This document shows, one piece after another, positions 7,384 to 32,395 of a stretch of DNA of 64,000 bases. Position numbers and translations under genes: made by a program. Under the pieces are notes generated by a model. That model was given only the letters and a program-made list of their open reading frames with translations. It had not been told where the DNA came from and did not search any database. The stretch is from contig JACZRV010000002.1 in the NCBI GenBank assembly GCA_022574555.1, positions 21,995 to 85,994 of the forward strand. The letters are read 5' to 3'. The stretch's first letter is position 1. Each line of letters begins with the position of its first letter. Source of the DNA: SAR324 cluster bacterium (GTDB lineage Bacteria > SAR324 > JACQKK01).

Positions 7384-7479
7384 GGCTTCGATCCCAAGGC
7401 GTTACCGGAAACACAATCGTGGCGGCGGACCGGGGTTTGCGCCCGCCGCCCTCGATCAACCCAATGGAGGATCACGACG

Positions 7480-8292: not shown

Positions 8293-8791
8293 TGGATCAT
8301 TCGCCGCTTCGGTCCATTGGCGCAGGGCAACCGCAAAGTCCCCAACCGCCCATCCCCCGGTTTGATTATAAGCGGTGCGAAGAGCCTGGAGCGTCGCTTC
8401 CCTGGCCTGTCCCGGCTATTCCCGGACATTTTCGGCCTGGGTCTGGGCAGCGGCCGGAACTTCGGTTACAATGGAGAACGAATGGAGGGTTGCTCCTCCG
8501 CCTGAACCATCCTTCGACAGGCTCTGGACAAACTTAGGGCAGGCGTTGGACGGATAGGGCCACACCGCCGCCGAATTTTACAAAACGAAGCCAATTTGAT
8601 TTATAATATCAGTGCATAACATTTCATCCCGGCGCGTCGGCGGGCGCGGGCGTCCCCGCCCCGCCTCCGGCCAGGCGCGGTTGATGTAACGGTTTGCGAG
8701 GGCTTGATCCAGTAGAATTTTGCGCATGGGATTTCCTGCAATTGTCGCCAATCGGTTGGTGGAAGCTCGAATTGAAATATTCGGGTCTTGT

Positions 8792-19746: not shown

Positions 19747-19768
19747 GCCATCGGCGGGGCACCCCGCA

Positions 19769-19838
19769 CCGTGCCGACAGTACCGTGCCGACAGTACCGT
19801 GCGAATAGTACCGTGCGAATAGTACCGTGCGGCCATGC
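19769..19838. repeat. Tandem 14-bp repeat, about 5 units of (ccgtgccgacagta)/(ccgtgcgaatagta), between the PQQ-dehydrogenase gene and glyA.
   Basis: Direct inspection: ccgtgccgacagta x2, ccgtgcgaatagta x2, then a partial unit. Confidence 0.8.
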
Positions 19839-21332: not shown

Positions 21333-21419
21333 ATTTTGGCAGCGAACGTAGGGGCGCACGGCGGTGCGCCCGGTGGTGGGGGATGTCTCGAATGACGGGC
21401 GCACCGCCGTGCGCCCCTA

Positions 21420-23063
21420 CTAATCCCGGCCGCTGCGCCGTACACGCAGCAGGTAGTGGAAGTCCAGGTATCCGCCGGCATCCCAATTCAAATAGCCGTG
21501 CCGGTCCGCGACTTCCAGATAGAACGCGTCGCCGGTCAGGCTGTGGGTAAATTTCTTCGCGTTGCCGAGGTGGATCGTCTTCTTCAGGAACCCCCCTTGG
21601 TCGTAGATGCGTATCACTGGCTGCAGGTTGGTGCGGCCCAGCCGGTACCATTCGATTTCGATCTCCTCACCGGGTTGCAACACATCGCCGAGAAAGATAT
21701 CCGCGTCGCCCCGGGAATCGACGTGACCGTAGATCATCGCGCCGAAACCGATGGGATTGGCCCGGTCGAACCTGCCGTTGTCTTCCAGTTCGGCGAAGGT
21801 GGGGCCCCAATCCTCCAGTTCTGGGTGGGCGGCGATCAAATCCTCGAACAGCCCCGCCACCATCGGTGTGCGCAGGGGCGGCGGGAAGGGCACCATCTCA
21901 TGGTTTTCCAGGTTGGGTCGCCGATGAACGCGCATCTCGAGCGTATCGTTGTGCCAATAGACCCGGCGCACCTGAAATGCGCCGAACTCCCTCCCGCTCA
22001 ATTCCGCTTCCAGTGATGCGCGATCTCCCGGGTAGACACCTTCGTAGGTGACCCATTTATCGGCGAGGCGGGAGAGCACGAATCCCTCGAACAGGCTGTT
22101 CGGGCGAAAGAAGTCGCGTTCGAACGTCTCCTCATCGTAGAGCGAGTGCAACCCCAGCACCCGCAGACGCAAGATTTCGCCCCCGGCGCTCCAGGCCTCG
22201 GGTTCCCCGATGCGGCCCGGTTGCATCTGCGCCAGGGCGGGTTCGATCACGCTCCGCATCACCGCTTCCACCAGCGCGGAAGTGACGGGCGACAGGGGCG
22301 GCAGGGGATCGCGTGCGGGTTGTTCGATAGAAGCCAGCAGCGCCCCTGTGCGCACCAGATAAAAAGCAGCGCTCAGGACCGTCCGTGACTCCTGATCGTC
22401 GTCCGTGGGCGTTCGGGTCGCCAAAACCAACACCGCCGGCGCGCCGGGGGCGATCCGCGCCAGCAACGCTCGCCGGGCCATGCGGCCGGTGAAGGGGCTG
22501 GCCAAAAGCGAAACGTCGCGCGCCTCGATCGCAGATTGCGCCGCCACGTCGAAATTCAAAAGTGCCAGCCTTTCCGTCAAGGCGGCAAACGCCGCCTCGC
22601 GCACGGAAGCCGAGGCCAGCAGCGGGTCGTTGCGGGGATACAGAATAGCCAGCCGCCGTTTGCGATCCCCCAGGATAGGCAGGGAGAGTTCCCTCAGATC
22701 GGCCACGAGCGCGGGCCGATCGACCTGGGCTTCCAATGCGGCGTAGTATTGCGTGCGGTCCAGGGATGTTTCGAGCTTGCGAATCCGGTAGGAACTGATG
22801 TACCGGTCCAGCCGGGAGAGGATGCGCCGTTTGAGATCGCCCCGATATAGTTGGAGCCATTCGGCAGCGACCAGCGACCGGAGCGCTTCGCGTACGACGG
22901 CCTCCTGGGCCAGCCGCACGGCGCGCAGCCGGGCGTCGTCGAGATCGTCCTCGAAGATGGGAACCCGTGCCTCTCCGTTGCGCGTGATCAGCCGTTCCTG
23001 GGCCGTGAGGGCGCCCCCCAGGAGCAAAACGGCCAACGACAGTATCAGTACGGGTTTCCTCAT
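21420..23063 (-). CDS. Secreted hypothetical protein, 547 aa.
   Basis: Signal peptide MRKPVLILSLAVLLLGGALTAQE. No recognisable domain. Last gene of a three-gene secreted-protein cluster. Confidence 0.6.
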   Translation of the reverse strand: MRKPVLILSLAVLLLGGALTAQERLITRNGEARVPIFEDDLDDARLRAVRLAQEAVVREALRSLVAAEWLQLYRGDLKRRILSRLDRYISSYRIRKLETSLDRTQYYAALEAQVDRPALVADLRELSLPILGDRKRRLAILYPRNDPLLASASVREAAFAALTERLALLNFDVAAQSAIEARDVSLLASPFTGRMARRALLARIAPGAPAVLVLATRTPTDDDQESRTVLSAAFYLVRTGALLASIEQPARDPLPPLSPVTSALVEAVMRSVIEPALAQMQPGRIGEPEAWSAGGEILRLRVLGLHSLYDEETFERDFFRPNSLFEGFVLSRLADKWVTYEGVYPGDRASLEAELSGREFGAFQVRRVYWHNDTLEMRVHRRPNLENHEMVPFPPPLRTPMVAGLFEDLIAAHPELEDWGPTFAELEDNGRFDRANPIGFGAMIYGHVDSRGDADIFLGDVLQPGEEIEIEWYRLGRTNLQPVIRIYDQGGFLKKTIHLGNAKKFTHSLTGDAFYLEVADRHGYLNWDAGGYLDFHYLLRVRRSGRD

Positions 23064-23093
23064 GACGCCGTCAGATAGACCTCAACTATGAGA

Positions 23094-24344
23094 CTATGAG
23101 CGCAAGTAACTCCGCAGTTCGTCCCGCAGCAGCCGGATCACGAGCAGGGCCTCGGCACCGGTCAAGGGGTCGAGGGGCTTGAACAGGCCGCGGATACCCT
23201 CTTTGGGTTTCATCAGGTTGCGGGTCACGACCGTCTGGACGGCGTTGAAATAGGGCAGGTCGTTGCGCACGTCGGGATAGGGGGAGACCTGTCCGATGAA
23301 CTTGGTGCGCACGCCGGTCTCGCCCGTGACTTTGACCAGGATGTCCTCCACCATCATGGCGAACTCCGCCCTCGTAATGTCGGCGTCGGGATTGAAGCGA
23401 TGGGCCGGGTCCGGCTCCAAACCCACCACACCGAGCCTCAATATTTCCTCGATATCACTGCGGAGAGGATGATCGGCAATATCGGTCGCCTGGGGCGCTC
23501 GTTGAATGGAGTCGGCCTCGAAATCGGTTTGGTCCGATGGTTGGAAACTCGTATCCACCTGCGCCCCGCCGCGAGTGTACAAGCGTTCCAAAAGCAGCTC
23601 TTCGACGAACAGCGCGGCGATATCGGCCCGTTTCATCGCTTCCAGAAATGCCACGGCTTGGCCGTGCCGTGTGCCCGGGCGGGCACGCTGCACCATTTGC
23701 ACCACGGCCAGCTCTTCATCGGCTTCCTTGGTTTTGCCCGCGTCCAGTTCCAGTACCCGCTCGTACAGATCACTGGCCTGATCGAGCTGAAAAGCCGTGC
23801 GATAGGCGCGTGCCATATAGTAATAGGGATGCGGGTCGCGAATCCCGCCTTCGGTGTCGATGGCGTCCTCGAAGTGGTCTTCGGCCTCTTCCAGCCAATC
23901 GTCGGGGGTGCCAGTCAACGTGTACATGCGGACGGCGGCCACGTGAACGCCCCGTTCTTCCTCGGGTGTATCGGCGTTGCCGCGGGCTTGGTCAATCAGA
24001 TCGTCGGCCTGCTCAGCAATGGCTTCCCGCTGCTCGGCGCTGATGCCAAATTCCGTGGCGCCGTGAGCGACCACGACGGCCTTGCCGGCTTGGGCCAGGG
24101 CGAATTCCCGATCCAGGCTGAGAGCCAGATCGAACTCCCGCTGGGCCTGCTCCCATTTGCGTGCGTCAATGGCGTCGTTGCCGCGCAGGGTATGATGCTC
24201 CGGGGTGTCCAACGCTCCCCGGGCGGAACGCGGGGCGGGTGCGCAGCCCGCCGCGACCAGGCACGATCCGATGGCCAAGCCAAGGACTGCCCGCCAGATT
24301 GATTCGCTGGAAATTCGGGTGATGCGATGGGATTTCGGGTTCAT
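23094..24344 (-). CDS. Lipoprotein with an N-terminal TPR-like helical region and a C-terminal SLH-like domain.
   Basis: Signal peptide with lipobox-like …AIGSC. The C-terminal segment …ITRAEFAMMVEDIL… fits the SLH consensus. Confidence 0.55.
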   Translation of the reverse strand: MNPKSHRITRISSESIWRAVLGLAIGSCLVAAGCAPAPRSARGALDTPEHHTLRGNDAIDARKWEQAQREFDLALSLDREFALAQAGKAVVVAHGATEFGISAEQREAIAEQADDLIDQARGNADTPEEERGVHVAAVRMYTLTGTPDDWLEEAEDHFEDAIDTEGGIRDPHPYYYMARAYRTAFQLDQASDLYERVLELDAGKTKEADEELAVVQMVQRARPGTRHGQAVAFLEAMKRADIAALFVEELLLERLYTRGGAQVDTSFQPSDQTDFEADSIQRAPQATDIADHPLRSDIEEILRLGVVGLEPDPAHRFNPDADITRAEFAMMVEDILVKVTGETGVRTKFIGQVSPYPDVRNDLPYFNAVQTVVTRNLMKPKEGIRGLFKPLDPLTGAEALLVIRLLRDELRSYLRS

Positions 24345-24387
24345 TGGGCGCCTCCATTGAAAAGGCCGATTCGGGTGTCCGTGTGGA

Positions 24388-25266
24388 TCAATCCAAGACG
24401 ATCAACACCCGCGATTCCCGCATGAAATTTTGGCCCTGAGCGATCTGACGCAGCGCATCGGCATCGGCCTGATCGATCACCAGGTCGGCCATGTTCGCTC
24501 CTTTGGCTTCCAGAGCCTTGATCAGCAAAGGATTGCCCTTCACCCGGTCATTCGTGGTCGCGGCCTCGATGTCCTTGGCGTAACCCACGATGCCTTGTGA
24601 TACGGCATATTCACGGCTTACATAAGCCGAGCCATACACTTCCCTGCCTTCCGGGTCCAGCACCTTGGGCGACATGGCCGGCAGTACGCCGGTGCCTTTC
24701 GCGTCGATGATCAGGCCCGTGTACATACGCTGGGTATTGATCTTGACCGCGGCGGCTCTGGCATCATTGGGAGGCCTGAGTTGCTGTGGCGGCCCCGAGA
24801 TATAGAGTTCCACCGGCACCACTTCCCTTAAATTGGCGGTCATCGTCAACGATATGCTGCCGTCGGAAAAATACTTCGGTTGCCCGACAAGCCGCAAGCT
24901 GGCCAGTTTGCCCTGTACGCGGGAGATGACCTTGTCGTCCAGTAACATGGCCTGCTGCATGGTCGTTTCCCCCGTGATGCTGACGCCTTTGATCAGTTCC
25001 AAGAGGTTGCGCGCCGCGTCGACCTTGGCTGCCCGCTGGGCGCTGATATTTTTTTGCGCCTCGGATTTGGCCCATTGGGCGGGGGCACCCAACCCCAGCG
25101 CAAAAGCGATTCCTGCATCCCAGTCGATACAGTCGACGTCGGTATTCTCGTCGCAGGGTAGATCTCCACCGCCCTGAGCCCAAAGGGCGGGCGGGGCCGG
25201 CGAAACCAGCGCCATAGCGAACAGGGGAATAACGATCAGGCATATAAGGAAGGCCTTGATGTTCAT
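24388..25266 (-). CDS. Secreted hypothetical protein, 292 aa.
   Basis: Signal peptide. No recognisable domain. Shares an identical 17-nt leader with the downstream SLH gene. Confidence 0.55.
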   Translation of the reverse strand: MNIKAFLICLIVIPLFAMALVSPAPPALWAQGGGDLPCDENTDVDCIDWDAGIAFALGLGAPAQWAKSEAQKNISAQRAAKVDAARNLLELIKGVSITGETTMQQAMLLDDKVISRVQGKLASLRLVGQPKYFSDGSISLTMTANLREVVPVELYISGPPQQLRPPNDARAAAVKINTQRMYTGLIIDAKGTGVLPAMSPKVLDPEGREVYGSAYVSREYAVSQGIVGYAKDIEAATTNDRVKGNPLLIKALEAKGANMADLVIDQADADALRQIAQGQNFMRESRVLIVLD

Positions 25267-25883
25267 CTGCCGCCTCCATTGAAAAGGAACTTCTAGCGGT
25301 CACAACTGCTGAAAAGTGCGCTCGCGCGACGAGTAACAGCGTTCCGGTGTGCGGTTATGCAATGCAGGGGAAGGATTCATCGGCACGGAGCCACGATACA
25401 ATGCTGACGCCAAGATACTGTGCAACGCGCGCCCTGTCAATCCGAATTATCGCAACCAATTGTAAACACAGCGTATAATCTTACAGAATATCTTCCCCGG
25501 CCTAATATTACCTGGTTTTTACCCACATCGAATCCGCAATACCCGCTGGCGCGACGTTTCCTCGTGCTCCGTGTCGATCGTGAGAGAAGCCCCGGCATCG
25601 CTTCACAGATTCCAAATTACGATCGTTCGCCCCCTATGAATGGCGGATGCCGTCTCCACGGAATAGATCCAGACAGCGCTGGAATAGGGCGTTGCATCCA
25701 GTCTGTCCGTTGACATCGAGCCACCTGACCGTTAAGTTGACCCACCTGGAAATCCCTGTCCGTCGGCGATTTCCGGCTATTCCATCCCCCACGGTCTCCC
25801 CCAGGCAAGGGGAAATCCCGCCGCCCAGGCATCGTTAGGTAGTTGCTGAAACCCAGGTAGTCGCTGAACAGAGGTCACGAGCT

Positions 25884-27596
25884 ATGGAAGACAAACTCCT
25901 CCGGGTCGACATGACGAATCTTTCCGTTGTGGAAGAGCCCTTCCCGGATGATTGGCGCTACCTGGGGGGCAGAGCCCTTTCGGCCAGGATTCTCCTGGAA
26001 GGCCAGGATCCGGCATGCGATCCCCTGGGTGCCGAAGCCTTGCTGGTGTTGGCGCCGGGGATCCTCAGCGGTTCGATGGCGCCCACCTCGGGCCGCATAT
26101 CCATCGGCGCGAAGAGCCCTCTTACGGGCCGCATCAAGGAAGCCAATTCCGGAGGTCAAGCGGGTCAGCACCTGATGCGGCTGGGCTATCGGGCCCTGAT
26201 TGTCCGAGGTAAGCCAACCGACCCGGACCAGCGCTGGGTATTGGAGATCGGCGAAGAAGGTGTGCACCTTATCGAAAAATCGGAGCTCAAGGGCATGCGC
26301 AATTATCCAGCGGCCGAGGCGTTGCTGCAAGGCAAGGACAAGCGCGCCTCAACGGTGATCTGCGGGCCCGCGGGCGAGATGGGTCTGACCGGGGCCACGA
26401 TCGCGCTGACCGATATGGATCATCGCTATCCCACCCGCCACGCGGCCCGCGGGGGGCTCGGTGCGGTGATGGGATCCAAGGGACTCAAGGCCATCACCAT
26501 CGATCCGGGCCGCGCCAAGTTTCGCCGGCCGGCCCGCGAACAGGCGTTCAAGACGCTCTTTCAGACCTTCGCCAAGGAATACCGGGCCGGCAAGCAGCCC
26601 CTGAAAAACGGCACCGCGACGGTCGTGCCCGTGGCCAATATGCTTTCCACCCTGCCCACCCGCAACCGCCGGGCCATGCAGTACGATAAACACGAGGGGC
26701 TGGACGGGGCCAAGATCCTGGCGAACTACGAGACCCGGGGGGGCAAGCAGCACGGATGCATGTCGGGCTGCATCGTCCAATGCTCCAACATTATCAACGA
26801 CCCGGATGGCCACTACATCACGTCGGCCCTGGAATTCGAGACCCTGGGCATGCTGGGCTCCAATTGCGATATCGGCGATCTGGATGTCGTGGCCCGCTTG
26901 GACCGGCTGTGCGACGATCTGGGTCTGGACACAATCGAAACCGGTGGCGCCATTGCCGTGGCCATGGAAGCCGGGGCGCTTTCCTTCGGTGACGCTGGCG
27001 CCATGATCGAATTGCTCGACAAAGAAATCGAAGCGGCCACGCCCTTGGGCCAAGCTGTGGGCAACGGCGTGGTCGCCACCTGCGAAGCCTACGGCGCCAT
27101 GAATCGGGTGCCCGCGATCGGCGGGCAGGGTATCCCGGCGTGGGAACCGCGGACGCTGCCGGTGACGGCCATCACGTATGCGACCAGCGCGATGGGTGCG
27201 GACCACACCGCCGGGCTGGTGACCCGCACCAAAAATCCCGACGCCGCCCAGGCTTCGCAGTTCGCCCAGGTGGTGAACATGGTTTGCGATTCATCGGGGT
27301 TCTGCCAGTTTCAAATTCTGCGTTTGGAAGACCTGCGCCAGTTTTACAACGCCATCTTCGGCGTTGATTGGGACGGCGCGGAGATCTATCATCACGGATT
27401 CGCCGCACTGCAGGACGAATGGGAATTCAACCGGCGCGCCGGCTTCACCCTCGACGATAGCGACCTCCCCGACTGGATGAGGGAGGAAAAAGTACCCAGT
27501 AACGACGCGGTGTATCAAGCCACCCGCGACGTATTGGAGCGCGTCTTTACGGAAAACTACGACGATTCAGCCCTCAAGATCCGCGCCAGCGGCTGA
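25884..27596 (+). CDS. Aldehyde:ferredoxin oxidoreductase family protein (tungsten/molybdopterin, AOR).
   Basis: AOR N-terminal domain (…LTGRIKEANSGGQAG…) and the C-terminal AFOR domain. About 570 aa. Confidence 0.8.
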   Translation: MEDKLLRVDMTNLSVVEEPFPDDWRYLGGRALSARILLEGQDPACDPLGAEALLVLAPGILSGSMAPTSGRISIGAKSPLTGRIKEANSGGQAGQHLMRLGYRALIVRGKPTDPDQRWVLEIGEEGVHLIEKSELKGMRNYPAAEALLQGKDKRASTVICGPAGEMGLTGATIALTDMDHRYPTRHAARGGLGAVMGSKGLKAITIDPGRAKFRRPAREQAFKTLFQTFAKEYRAGKQPLKNGTATVVPVANMLSTLPTRNRRAMQYDKHEGLDGAKILANYETRGGKQHGCMSGCIVQCSNIINDPDGHYITSALEFETLGMLGSNCDIGDLDVVARLDRLCDDLGLDTIETGGAIAVAMEAGALSFGDAGAMIELLDKEIEAATPLGQAVGNGVVATCEAYGAMNRVPAIGGQGIPAWEPRTLPVTAITYATSAMGADHTAGLVTRTKNPDAAQASQFAQVVNMVCDSSGFCQFQILRLEDLRQFYNAIFGVDWDGAEIYHHGFAALQDEWEFNRRAGFTLDDSDLPDWMREEKVPSNDAVYQATRDVLERVFTENYDDSALKIRASG

Positions 27597-32230: not shown

Positions 32231-32395
32231 GCAAATCCTCCATTTTTCATGCGGCGTCAGGTCACACGACGCGCATTGGTAACCGATCCCTAAATCGGAT
32301 TTCCTTCACCGGCAAATCCTCGACGGTAAAACAGTACCTCTGATATCGCGGAATAGCCGCGCCACCTTGAGCGCAGGTTTCTGCCGATCGCGATC

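What the first reader, a model, noticed from the sequence alone, without database searches (positions are those of the whole stretch)
24340..25284. Identical 17-nt 5' leader (CCUUUUCAAUGGAGGCG) immediately upstream of two adjacent start codons
On the minus strand, the sequences preceding the AUG of the 416-aa gene (rc of 24348-24364) and of the 292-aa gene (rc of 25270-25286) are identical over 17 nt. Both include the GGAGG Shine-Dalgarno. The sequence context diverges on either side of the motif. Such conservation beyond the SD suggests a regulatory RNA or protein binding site, or a recent local duplication of the initiation region.
Basis: seen in the sequence. Interest (0 to 1): 0.5.

Follow-up and report, generated by a model that had tools for sequence, protein, structure and literature searches.

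The report
Two adjacent genes share one ribosome-binding leader
Two neighbouring envelope-protein genes in an uncultured SAR324 bacterium have the same 17-base ribosome-binding leader; it is real and not chance, but it is found only in this species and looks like an ordinary strong translation start site that became identical at both genes, not a new regulatory element.

Summary
CCTTTTCAATGGAGGCG occurs exactly twice in the window, at 25271-25287 and 24349-24365 on the minus strand. Each copy lies 4 nt before ATGAAC of adjacent genes A (292 aa, LPP20-like) and B (416 aa, TPR+SLH lipoprotein). Among 465 pairs of gene starts, the in-register run of identity is 17; the next best is 8. Eight independent assemblies of the species carry both copies. 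No other genome does: A/B runs are 5 or less in 12 relatives. Orthologs split the 17-mer into layers. GGAGGCG-CCC-ATGAA is ancestral to B, and TCAA-GGAG-CGGCA is ancestral to A. A T-run before the SD recurs in A orthologs (11/28) but not in B orthologs (1/15). AATGGAGG also precedes two unrelated exported-protein genes here. Best reading: a U-rich enhancer plus strong SD, homogenised between the two start sites by short-tract conversion or parallel selection, giving matched translation. Rfam finds nothing and predicted structure is no better than shuffles. A small fourU-like hairpin (CCUUUU:GGAGG) is possible in this species only. A trans-acting regulator is not excluded, and only 64 kb of the genome could be searched. 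Interest is low to moderate.

The parts
25271..25287 (-). 17-mer copy 1 (CCUUUUCAAUGGAGGCG) in the leader of gene A. U-tract 25282-25285, SD GGAGG 25273-25277, then a 6-nt gap to the ATG at 25264-25266.
24349..24365 (-). 17-mer copy 2, in the 43-nt gap between the stop of A and the start of B. SD GGAGG 24351-24355, then a 6-nt gap to the ATG at 24342-24344.
24388..25266 (-). Gene A, 292 aa, with a signal peptide. Member of a large SAR324/Lambdaproteobacteria family; 12 of 20 members give a weak LPP20 (PF02169) hit.
23094..24344 (-). Gene B, 416 aa, a lipoprotein-like protein with TPR and SLH domains.
21420..23063 (-). Gene C, 547 aa, a secreted protein with no family match and the third gene of the conserved A-B-C cluster. 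Its leader does not carry the motif.
25412..25440 (-). Promoter-like site TTGACA-17-TATCTT about 145 nt upstream of the start of A. This is a consensus match only, and the number of such sites in the region is not above the shuffle expectation.
21348..21420 (.). Perfect 25-bp inverted repeat directly after the stop of gene C. Probably a bidirectional terminator that closes the A-B-C unit (inferred).
7463..7470 (+). AATGGAGG (preceded by C, so CAATGGAGG) 9 nt before the ATG of a cupredoxin-domain exported protein. It shares the 3' half of the motif.
32237..32244 (-). AATGGAGG 6 nt before the ATG of a LysM/SLT exported protein, in the same register as A and B.

Best explanation
The two 17-mers are the translation initiation regions of two consecutive cistrons of one operon (A-B-C, all exported envelope proteins). 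Each consists of a G-free, U-rich tract (CCUUUUCAAU) joined to a strong Shine-Dalgarno sequence (GGAGG) placed 6 nt from the AUG. By analogy with E. coli, the U-rich tract would act as an S1-binding or unstructured enhancer that works cooperatively with a strong SD. The two sites already resembled each other, because each gene ancestrally had GGAG-CG and a CAA(T)-like element. They became identical in the recent ancestry of this one species. The most likely route is a very short conversion or template-switch event that copied the U-tract of A onto B. Parallel selection for the genome's preferred strong RBS context (AAUGGAGG-N6-AUG) is the alternative route. The consequence would be that A and B are initiated at the same high rate, suitable for two proteins made in fixed proportion. 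Shown: the identity, its register, its restriction to one species, the ancestral layers, the recurrence of the T-run at A orthologs and the recurrence of AATGGAGG at other starts. Inferred: S1 or enhancer action, the direction A to B, conversion versus convergence, and the stoichiometry rationale.
For: The identity is exact, in register and an outlier (17 versus 8 or less in 465 pairs). It is present in 8 assemblies of the species and in no other genome (A/B in-register runs of 5 or less in 12 genomes). B orthologs read ..ACGGAGGCGCCCG ATGAAACCC (L035)..CACGGAGATATCCG ATGAACCCG (L039) and ..CGGAGACGCCCC ATGAAT (L033, L034, L036), so the SD, CG, spacer and first codons of B are ancestral and only CCTTTTCAAT is new. 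A orthologs read ..TTCGAAGGAGCGGAACC..CAATCAAGGAGCGGCATC and ..CATTCAAGGAGCGGAATC, so TCAA-GGAG-CGGCA is ancestral to A. A T-run of 4 or more within 30 nt of the start occurs in 11 of 28 A orthologs (2.9 expected from locus background), including genomes of 67-70% GC, but in 1 of 15 B orthologs (Fisher p = 0.03). This makes A the more likely donor. AAT precedes GGAGG at 4 of about 8 genuine GGAGG-SD starts but at only 2 of about 186 other GGAGG sites. In E. coli, A/U-rich tracts upstream of the SD bind S1 and enhance initiation cooperatively with strong SDs (PMC2176067, read). No known RNA family matches and no fold is better than shuffles.
Against: Conversion tracts as short as about 10-17 nt between non-homologous genes 922 bp apart are unusual. 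No intermediate genome was found that fixes the direction or mechanism. The closest A relatives (L033, L034, L036) lack the T-run, so its ancestry at A is patchy. A itself has two small changes towards the B state (GGAG to GGAGG, CAA to CAAT), which a single A-to-B event does not explain. The background for T-runs was computed over whole loci, not over intergenic DNA only, so the enrichment is overstated. S1 enhancer behaviour is known from E. coli, not from SAR324. Only 64 kb of this genome could be searched, so further copies elsewhere cannot be excluded.
Confidence: 0.55

Rival explanations
1. The 17-mer is a compact fourU-like, SD-sequestering hairpin. CCUUUU pairs with GGAGG across a UCAAU loop, so both cistrons are translationally repressed when the hairpin is closed (low temperature) and released together when it melts or is opened.
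For: Folded alone, both 24-mers give exactly this hairpin (-4.8 and -7.4 kcal/mol). In 100-nt native context the SD pairs with the U-tract in 0.40 (A) and 0.42 (B) of the ensemble at 37 C, rising to 0.66 and 0.86 at 4 C. The hairpin lies wholly inside the identical block, which would explain why that block is what is shared. fourU thermometers are defined by four U's pairing with the SD (PMC3185406).
Against: Stability is not distinguishable from shuffles (z = -0.75 and -0.88 alone, about 0 in 60-120 nt contexts), and the MFE structures of the two longer contexts differ. The core hairpin energies differ between the two contexts (-2.9 versus -7.4 kcal/mol at 37 C). In orthologs with a T-run, the U-tract almost never pairs with the SD (0.19 or less), so pairing is not the conserved role of the T-run. 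Other GGAGG SDs in this GC-rich window are predicted to be equally paired (0.79-0.89). Known fourU elements have longer stems and control heat-shock or virulence genes.
Confidence: 0.15
2. The shared sequence is the binding site of a trans-acting post-transcriptional regulator (a CsrA/RsmA-type protein that recognises A(N)GGA at the SD, or a base-pairing small RNA) that co-regulates A and B, and perhaps the other AAUGGAGG genes.
For: AUGGA fits the minimal A(N)GGA core (my knowledge of CsrA sites). AAUGGAGG recurs in front of four exported-protein genes. An intergenic element at 8469-8502 carries two AAUGGAG(G) motifs 12 nt apart, reminiscent of a decoy RNA. Identity beyond the SD is what a sequence-specific binder would impose.
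Against: No sequence complementary to the motif exists in the window (searched both strands with up to 3 mismatches). The GGA lies in the stem, not the loop, of the only predicted local hairpin. The A leader has a single GGA within 60 nt of its start. The upstream 10 nt are not conserved in any ortholog of B and are only loosely conserved in A. No regulator gene was identified and no Rfam sRNA family matched.
Confidence: 0.1
3. Pure coincidence: two independently evolved strong RBSs happen to be identical, and nothing was copied or co-selected.
For: Both ancestors already shared GGAG-CG and a CAA(T) element. AATGGAGG is a favoured context here. The same 17-mer+N4+ATG occurs once in the metagenome collection, in front of an unrelated LexA-like (Peptidase_S24) gene in a low-GC contig, which shows that such sequences can arise as generic RBSs. 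Chance 17-mer repeats do exist in the window.
Against: After discounting the SD and CG, 10 further A/T-rich bases match in exact register in adjacent genes of a 61% GC genome (about 1.5e-6 per pair by my estimate). No other pair of starts exceeds 8, and no other genome's A/B pair exceeds 5.
Confidence: 0.05
4. The shared DNA is a transcription signal (a promoter -10 element TTCAAT or an operator) repeated before both genes, and not an RNA-level signal.
For: TTGTGA-16-TTCAAT (A) and TTGATC-24-TTCAAT (B) can be read by eye.
Against: The promoter scan found no site there. TTCAAT lacks the essential A at position 2, and the spacer before B is far too long. A transcript starting after this -10 would lose the GGAGG that sits at ideal SD distance. 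The motif is not palindromic as operators usually are.
Confidence: 0.03

Closest known systems
A/U-rich (ribosomal protein S1-dependent) translational enhancer plus Shine-Dalgarno initiation region, as characterised in E. coli (Vimberg et al. 2007, PMC2176067; Zhang & Deutscher 1992, cited there)
   Same: A G-poor, U-rich tract lies directly 5' of a strong SD (GGAGG) at optimal spacing to the AUG. T-run-plus-SD architecture recurs in orthologs of gene A. It sits at genes for exported, probably abundant, envelope proteins.
   Different: No experimental evidence exists in SAR324. The unusual point is that two non-homologous adjacent cistrons carry an identical copy. The tract is short (10 nt) and in this species can also pair with the SD.
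fourU RNA thermometer (Salmonella agsA type; PMC3185406, PMC2887971)
   Same: Four consecutive U's lie a few nt upstream of, and are complementary to, the SD. The predicted SD:U-tract pairing increases at low temperature.
   Different: The stem is only 5-6 bp with no extended hairpin. Stability is not above shuffles. The pairing is not conserved in orthologs. The genes are not heat-shock or virulence genes.
CsrA/RsmA binding sites overlapping the SD (A(N)GGA in hairpin loops)
   Same: An AUGGA core overlaps the SD, and the motif recurs at several exported-protein genes.
   Different: The GGA is predicted in a stem, not a loop. Only one site is present in the A leader. No regulator or decoy RNA was identified, and there is no conservation.
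Short-tract gene conversion or concerted evolution between nearby repeats
   Same: A sharply bounded identity block sits between sequences 922 bp apart. It is restricted to one lineage and flanked by divergent DNA, and there was pre-existing microhomology (GGAG-CG, CAA(T)).
   Different: Classical conversion acts on paralogous genes with long homology. Here the partners are non-homologous genes that share only their RBS, and the tract would be about 10-17 nt.

Membership tests
A/U-rich enhancer + SD translation initiation region | SD complementary to the 16S 3' end, 5-9 nt upstream of the start codon | tested here: met
   GGAGG lies 6 nt before the ATG in both copies. Both start codons open ORFs with signal-peptide-like N-termini that are conserved in orthologs.
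A/U-rich enhancer + SD translation initiation region | A/U-rich, G-poor tract immediately 5' of the SD | tested here: met
   CCUUUUCAAU has 0 G and 7 of 10 A/U in a 61% GC genome. T-runs occur at 11 of 28 A orthologs against 2.9 expected.
A/U-rich enhancer + SD translation initiation region | The tract binds S1 and/or raises translation | not testable with these tools
   This needs reporter fusions or S1 binding assays.
fourU RNA thermometer | Four consecutive U's base-paired with the SD in a hairpin | tested here: inconclusive
   The hairpin is the MFE of the isolated 24-mers and makes up 0.40-0.42 of the ensemble at 37 C in context. However, z-scores are -0.75 to +0.96 and the MFE structures of the longer contexts differ.
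fourU RNA thermometer | Structure maintained in related sequences | tested here: not met
   U-tract:SD pairing probability is 0.19 or less in all 11 T-run-bearing orthologs. The motif is absent from B orthologs.
fourU RNA thermometer | Temperature-dependent translation | not testable with these tools
   There is only the in-silico trend, which any hairpin would show.
CsrA/RsmA target site | A(N)GGA core presented in a hairpin loop | tested here: not met
   AUGGA is present, but the GGA lies in the stem of the predicted local hairpin.
CsrA/RsmA target site | Two or more GGA sites per leader, to fit the dimer | tested here: inconclusive
   The B leader has ACGGAC plus UGGAGG. The A leader has a single GGA within 60 nt of the start.
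CsrA/RsmA target site | The regulator is encoded in the genome | not testable with these tools
   Only 64 kb of the genome is available, and attempts to extend it failed.
Any curated cis-regulatory RNA (Rfam 15) | Covariance-model match | tested here: not met
   There were no hits at gathering threshold in the whole window. Over 24250-25900 there were only chance eukaryotic and archaeal small-RNA (snoRNA, miRNA) hits with E of 0.5 or more.
Local duplication / short-tract conversion | Identity block with sharp borders, restricted to one lineage, with each flank orthologous to its own gene | tested here: met
   Borders. Species restriction. The spacers and first codons match each gene's own orthologs.
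Local duplication / short-tract conversion | Identifiable donor and recipient | tested here: inconclusive
   The T-run is typical of A orthologs and not of B orthologs, which favours A to B. However, GGAGGCG is B-ancestral, and the A leaders of the closest relatives lack the T-run.

The most novel reading that the evidence does not exclude
The 17-mer is a self-contained, portable translational control module. It would be either a minimal anti-SD/SD (fourU-like) hairpin or the operator of a sequence-specific regulator, copied from one cistron onto the next so that two envelope proteins are switched together. The AAUGGAGG genes and the tandem AAUGGAG element at 8469-8502 would then belong to the same post-transcriptional regulon of exported proteins in SAR324.
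Probability: 0.15. Interest if true: 0.45.

Novelty: new member of a known kind. Interest (0 to 1): 0.22.

Why it matters
If the main reading is right, this is a small, clean natural example of how translation initiation regions evolve. Two non-homologous neighbouring cistrons end up with the same enhancer-plus-SD cassette, presumably to match their output. The ancestral layers are visible in relatives. This would interest people who model RBS evolution or operon stoichiometry, and it gives a ready-made pair of native strong RBSs for an uncultured lineage (SAR324). It does not open a new class of regulation. Only the minority reading (a portable hairpin or operator module) would be of wider interest.

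Tried and rejected
Approaches that led nowhere, or ideas that were tested and dropped:

1. Rfam at gathering threshold on the whole window, and at permissive E-value on 24250-25900, gave nothing meaningful.

2. Single-sequence folding of 24-, 60- and 120-nt contexts gave no structure better than shuffles.

3. A genome-wide motif search could be done only within the 64-kb window and across JGI metagenome contigs with 17-mer+N4+ATG. The latter gave one unrelated hit, a LexA-like gene in a low-GC contig.

4. Extending the genome beyond the window through edge proteins failed: neither protein is on record.

5. I tried to find the A leader of the two closest B relatives. L035 is truncated or chimeric at gene A, and L039 holds only the last 73 codons of A. 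No A-family hit belongs to those organisms.

6. The promoter or operator reading of TTCAAT was rejected (and spacing).

7. Extended pairing of CAAUGGAGGCG with a standard 16S 3' tail was considered. Only GGAGG plus two A:U pairs across a U-U mismatch would form, and the 16S gene is not in the window, so this was not pursued.

8. The upstream out-of-frame AUG inside CAAUGG was considered as a uORF start. It has no SD of its own and merely opens the usual alternative-frame ORF of a GC-rich gene, so it was rejected.
Full report
OBSERVATION. On the minus strand, CCTTTTCAATGGAGGCG occurs at 25271-25287 and 24349-24365, and nowhere else in the window even with 3 mismatches. Each copy is followed by a different 4-nt spacer (GCAG or CCCA) and then ATGAAC. 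So 24 of 27 positions are identical and the similarity collapses on both sides. In both copies GGAGG sits 6 nt from the ATG. The downstream ORFs are gene A (24388-25266, 292 aa) and gene B (23094-24344, 416 aa), and 43 nt separate the stop of A from the start of B.

IS IT MORE THAN CHANCE? A bare 17-mer repeat is not remarkable in this window, because four other dispersed GC-rich 17-mers also repeat. What is remarkable is that the two copies are in exact register with two adjacent start codons. Among 465 pairs of gene-start regions the longest in-register identity is 17 for A/B and 8 for the next pair. Ten of the shared bases form a G-free, A/T-rich stretch in a genome of 61% GC. I estimate about 1.5e-6 per pair for those ten extra matches. 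The same two leaders are present in six independent metagenome contigs with an identical A protein (L001-L006) and in a strain with 98% nucleotide identity (L038), so this is not an assembly artefact.

CONTEXT. The best protein hit names a SAR324 cluster bacterium MAG. Gene A belongs to a family of more than 700 proteins from SAR324, Lambdaproteobacteria and 'Deltaproteobacteria' MAGs. Pfam finds nothing in the window's own copy, but 12 of 20 family members give weak LPP20 hits. Gene B has TPR and SLH domains and a lipoprotein-like N-terminus. Gene C (21420-23063, 547 aa) is a secreted protein with no family. The order A-B-C is conserved in the closer relatives (L007-L014, L022, L031, L034) but not in more distant SAR324 genomes, where A stands without B and C. 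A promoter-like site lies about 145 nt upstream of A, and a perfect 25-bp inverted repeat follows C. I therefore treat A-B-C as one transcription unit, which is an inference.

COMPARATIVE ANATOMY OF THE TWO LEADERS. I read both leaders in 12 other genomes, and one or the other leader in about 20 more.

- Gene B. The nearest relatives read ..CACAAATACGGAGGCGCCCG ATGAAACCC (L035), ..CCCACAATCCACGGAGATATCCG ATGAACCCG (L039, 71% protein identity, same 43-nt spacer length) and ..CGGAGACGCCCC ATGAAT (L033; L034 and L036 are similar). So GGAGGCG, the CCC spacer and Met-Asn-Pro are ancestral to B. Only CCTTTTCAAT is new.
- Gene A. The nearest relatives read ..CTTCGAAGGAGCGGAACC ATGAAG, ..GCAATCAAGGAGCGGCATC ATGAAG and ..GCATTCAAGGAGCGGAATC ATGATG. 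So TCAA-GGAG-CGGCA is ancestral to A, and the window differs by a T and a G (CAAT, GGAGG) plus the T-run.
- T-runs. More distant A orthologs very often carry a T-run just before the SD, for example TTTTTCCGGAG, TTTTTTCGGAG, TTTTTGGGGAG, TTTTCACTTGTCCGGAG, TTTTTCCCGCAGGAGG, TTTTGTGAGGAG, TTTTCTGAGGAG and TTTTTAGTCAGGAG. This holds for 11 of 28 A orthologs against 2.9 expected from locus background, and it includes genomes of 67-70% GC. For B orthologs it is 1 of 15 (Fisher p = 0.03).
- Within-genome similarity. In none of the 12 genomes with both leaders do the A and B leaders resemble each other. In-register runs are 5 or less and any-register runs 8 or less, against 17 here.

The 17-mer is therefore a mosaic. 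Its 3' part was already similar in the two genes. Its U-rich 5' part is typical of gene A. Complete identity is a recent, species-specific event.

IS IT JUST THE PREFERRED RBS? Partly. AATGGAGG occurs six times in the window (about 1.5 expected). Four of these lie 6-9 nt before genuine start codons: A, B, a cupredoxin-domain protein (7480+, CAATGGAGG) and a LysM/SLT protein (32230-, same 6-nt register). All four products are exported. AAT precedes 4 of about 8 true GGAGG-type SDs but only 2 of about 186 other GGAGG sites. So the 3' half of the motif is a favoured strong-RBS context in this organism, while CCTTTTC is shared only by A and B. A scan of the JGI metagenome contigs for the 17-mer+N4+ATG returned a single unrelated low-GC contig, in which the sequence is the RBS of a LexA-like Peptidase_S24 gene. 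That shows such a sequence can arise as a generic RBS. The source species seems absent from that collection, so it says nothing about a regulon.

STRUCTURE. Taken alone, each copy folds into CCUUUU:GGAGG with a UCAAU loop (-4.8 and -7.4 kcal/mol). The z-scores are only -0.75 and -0.88, and in 60- and 120-nt contexts the MFE structures differ between A and B, with z near 0. In 100-nt context the SD pairs with the U-tract in 0.40 (A) and 0.42 (B) of the ensemble at 37 C, and in 0.66 (A) and 0.86 (B) at 4 C. In all T-run-bearing orthologs this pairing is 0.19 or less. Other GGAGG SDs in the window are predicted to be just as paired. The core hairpin energies differ between the two contexts (-2.9 versus -7.4 kcal/mol at 37 C). 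Rfam finds nothing. A fourU-like hairpin (defined in PMC3185406) is thus possible in this species, but it is neither supported statistically nor conserved.

MECHANISM. The most economical reading is that each 17-mer is a translation initiation region made of a U-rich, G-free enhancer plus a strong SD at optimal spacing. In E. coli such A/U-rich tracts bind ribosomal protein S1 or keep the site unstructured, and they enhance initiation cooperatively with strong SDs (PMC2176067). The recurrence of the T-run at A orthologs, including cases where it abuts the SD and cannot pair with it, fits an enhancer better than an anti-SD. The identity between A and B is best explained by a very short conversion or template-switch event anchored on pre-existing microhomology (CAA(T), GGAG-CG), most likely from A to B. 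Parallel selection towards the genome's preferred AAUGGAGG-N6-AUG context may also have contributed. The outcome would be matched, high initiation rates for two consecutive cistrons. I give this 0.55. The rivals are a fourU-like hairpin module (0.15), a trans-acting regulator site (0.10), pure coincidence (0.05) and a DNA-level promoter or operator (0.03). The remainder is unassigned.

COMPARISON WITH KNOWN SYSTEMS, AND NOVELTY. The element meets the sequence-level features of an enhancer-plus-SD initiation region. It fails the conservation test for a fourU thermometer and the loop-presentation feature of CsrA sites, and it matches no curated RNA family. It is an ordinary kind of element with one curious property: exact duplication across two non-homologous neighbouring cistrons in a single species. 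I rate it a new member of a known kind, with interest 0.22. The most novel reading not excluded is a portable hairpin or operator module that defines a small regulon of exported proteins. I give that probability 0.15 and interest 0.45 if true.

LIMITS. Only 64 kb of the genome could be searched, and attempts to extend it failed. No genome between 73% and 98% identity was found, so the direction and mechanism of homogenisation remain inferred. Start codons in orthologs were chosen by SD and signal-peptide criteria, not verified. The T-run background uses whole loci, not intergenic DNA only.

Noticed in passing
window 8469-8502 (+): In the roughly 500-nt gap after the cupredoxin gene lies CAATGGAGaacgAATGGAGGgttgctCCTCCgcc. 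This is two AAUGGAG(G) motifs 12 nt apart, the second inside a GGAGG/CCUCC hairpin, and no ORF follows. It could be a decoy-like or regulatory RNA, or nothing.
   Followed up: partly
window 19768-19826 (+): Five tandem 14-nt units (ACCGTGCCGACAGT x2, ACCGTGCGAATAGT x2, then a degenerate copy) lie directly upstream of the serine hydroxymethyltransferase gene (PF00464). They may be an array of protein-binding sites.
   Followed up: no
window 21348-21420: A perfect 25-bp inverted repeat with a 23-nt loop lies between the convergent gene C and the SHMT gene. It is probably a bidirectional terminator.
   Followed up: no
window 23094-24344 (-) and 24388-25266 (-): An SLH-domain, TPR-containing lipoprotein (B) sits next to an LPP20-like secreted protein (A) and an unknown 547-aa secreted protein (C). 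The cluster is conserved in one SAR324/Lambdaproteobacteria clade. An SLH-bearing lipoprotein in this lineage hints at an outer-membrane to cell-wall tether. None of the three proteins has a characterised relative.
   Followed up: partly
window 7463-7470 (+), 32237-32244 (-), 24351-24358 (-), 25273-25280 (-): AAUGGAGG, rather than the canonical AAGGAGG, is the recurring extended SD at four exported-protein genes. AAT precedes GGAGG at 4 of about 8 true starts but at only 2 of about 186 other sites. The reason is unknown, and the 16S 3' end is not in the window.
   Followed up: partly
L035 1-270: In this closest-relative contig the gene A homolog lacks about its first 100 codons and abuts unrelated membrane-protein-like sequence. 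This is either a chimeric assembly or a real rearrangement.
   Followed up: no
window 23064-23100 (-): The leader of gene C contains a direct repeat CTCATAGT CTCATAGT followed by TGAGG 19 nt before the ATG. Gene C therefore has no well-placed SD, unlike A and B.
   Followed up: no
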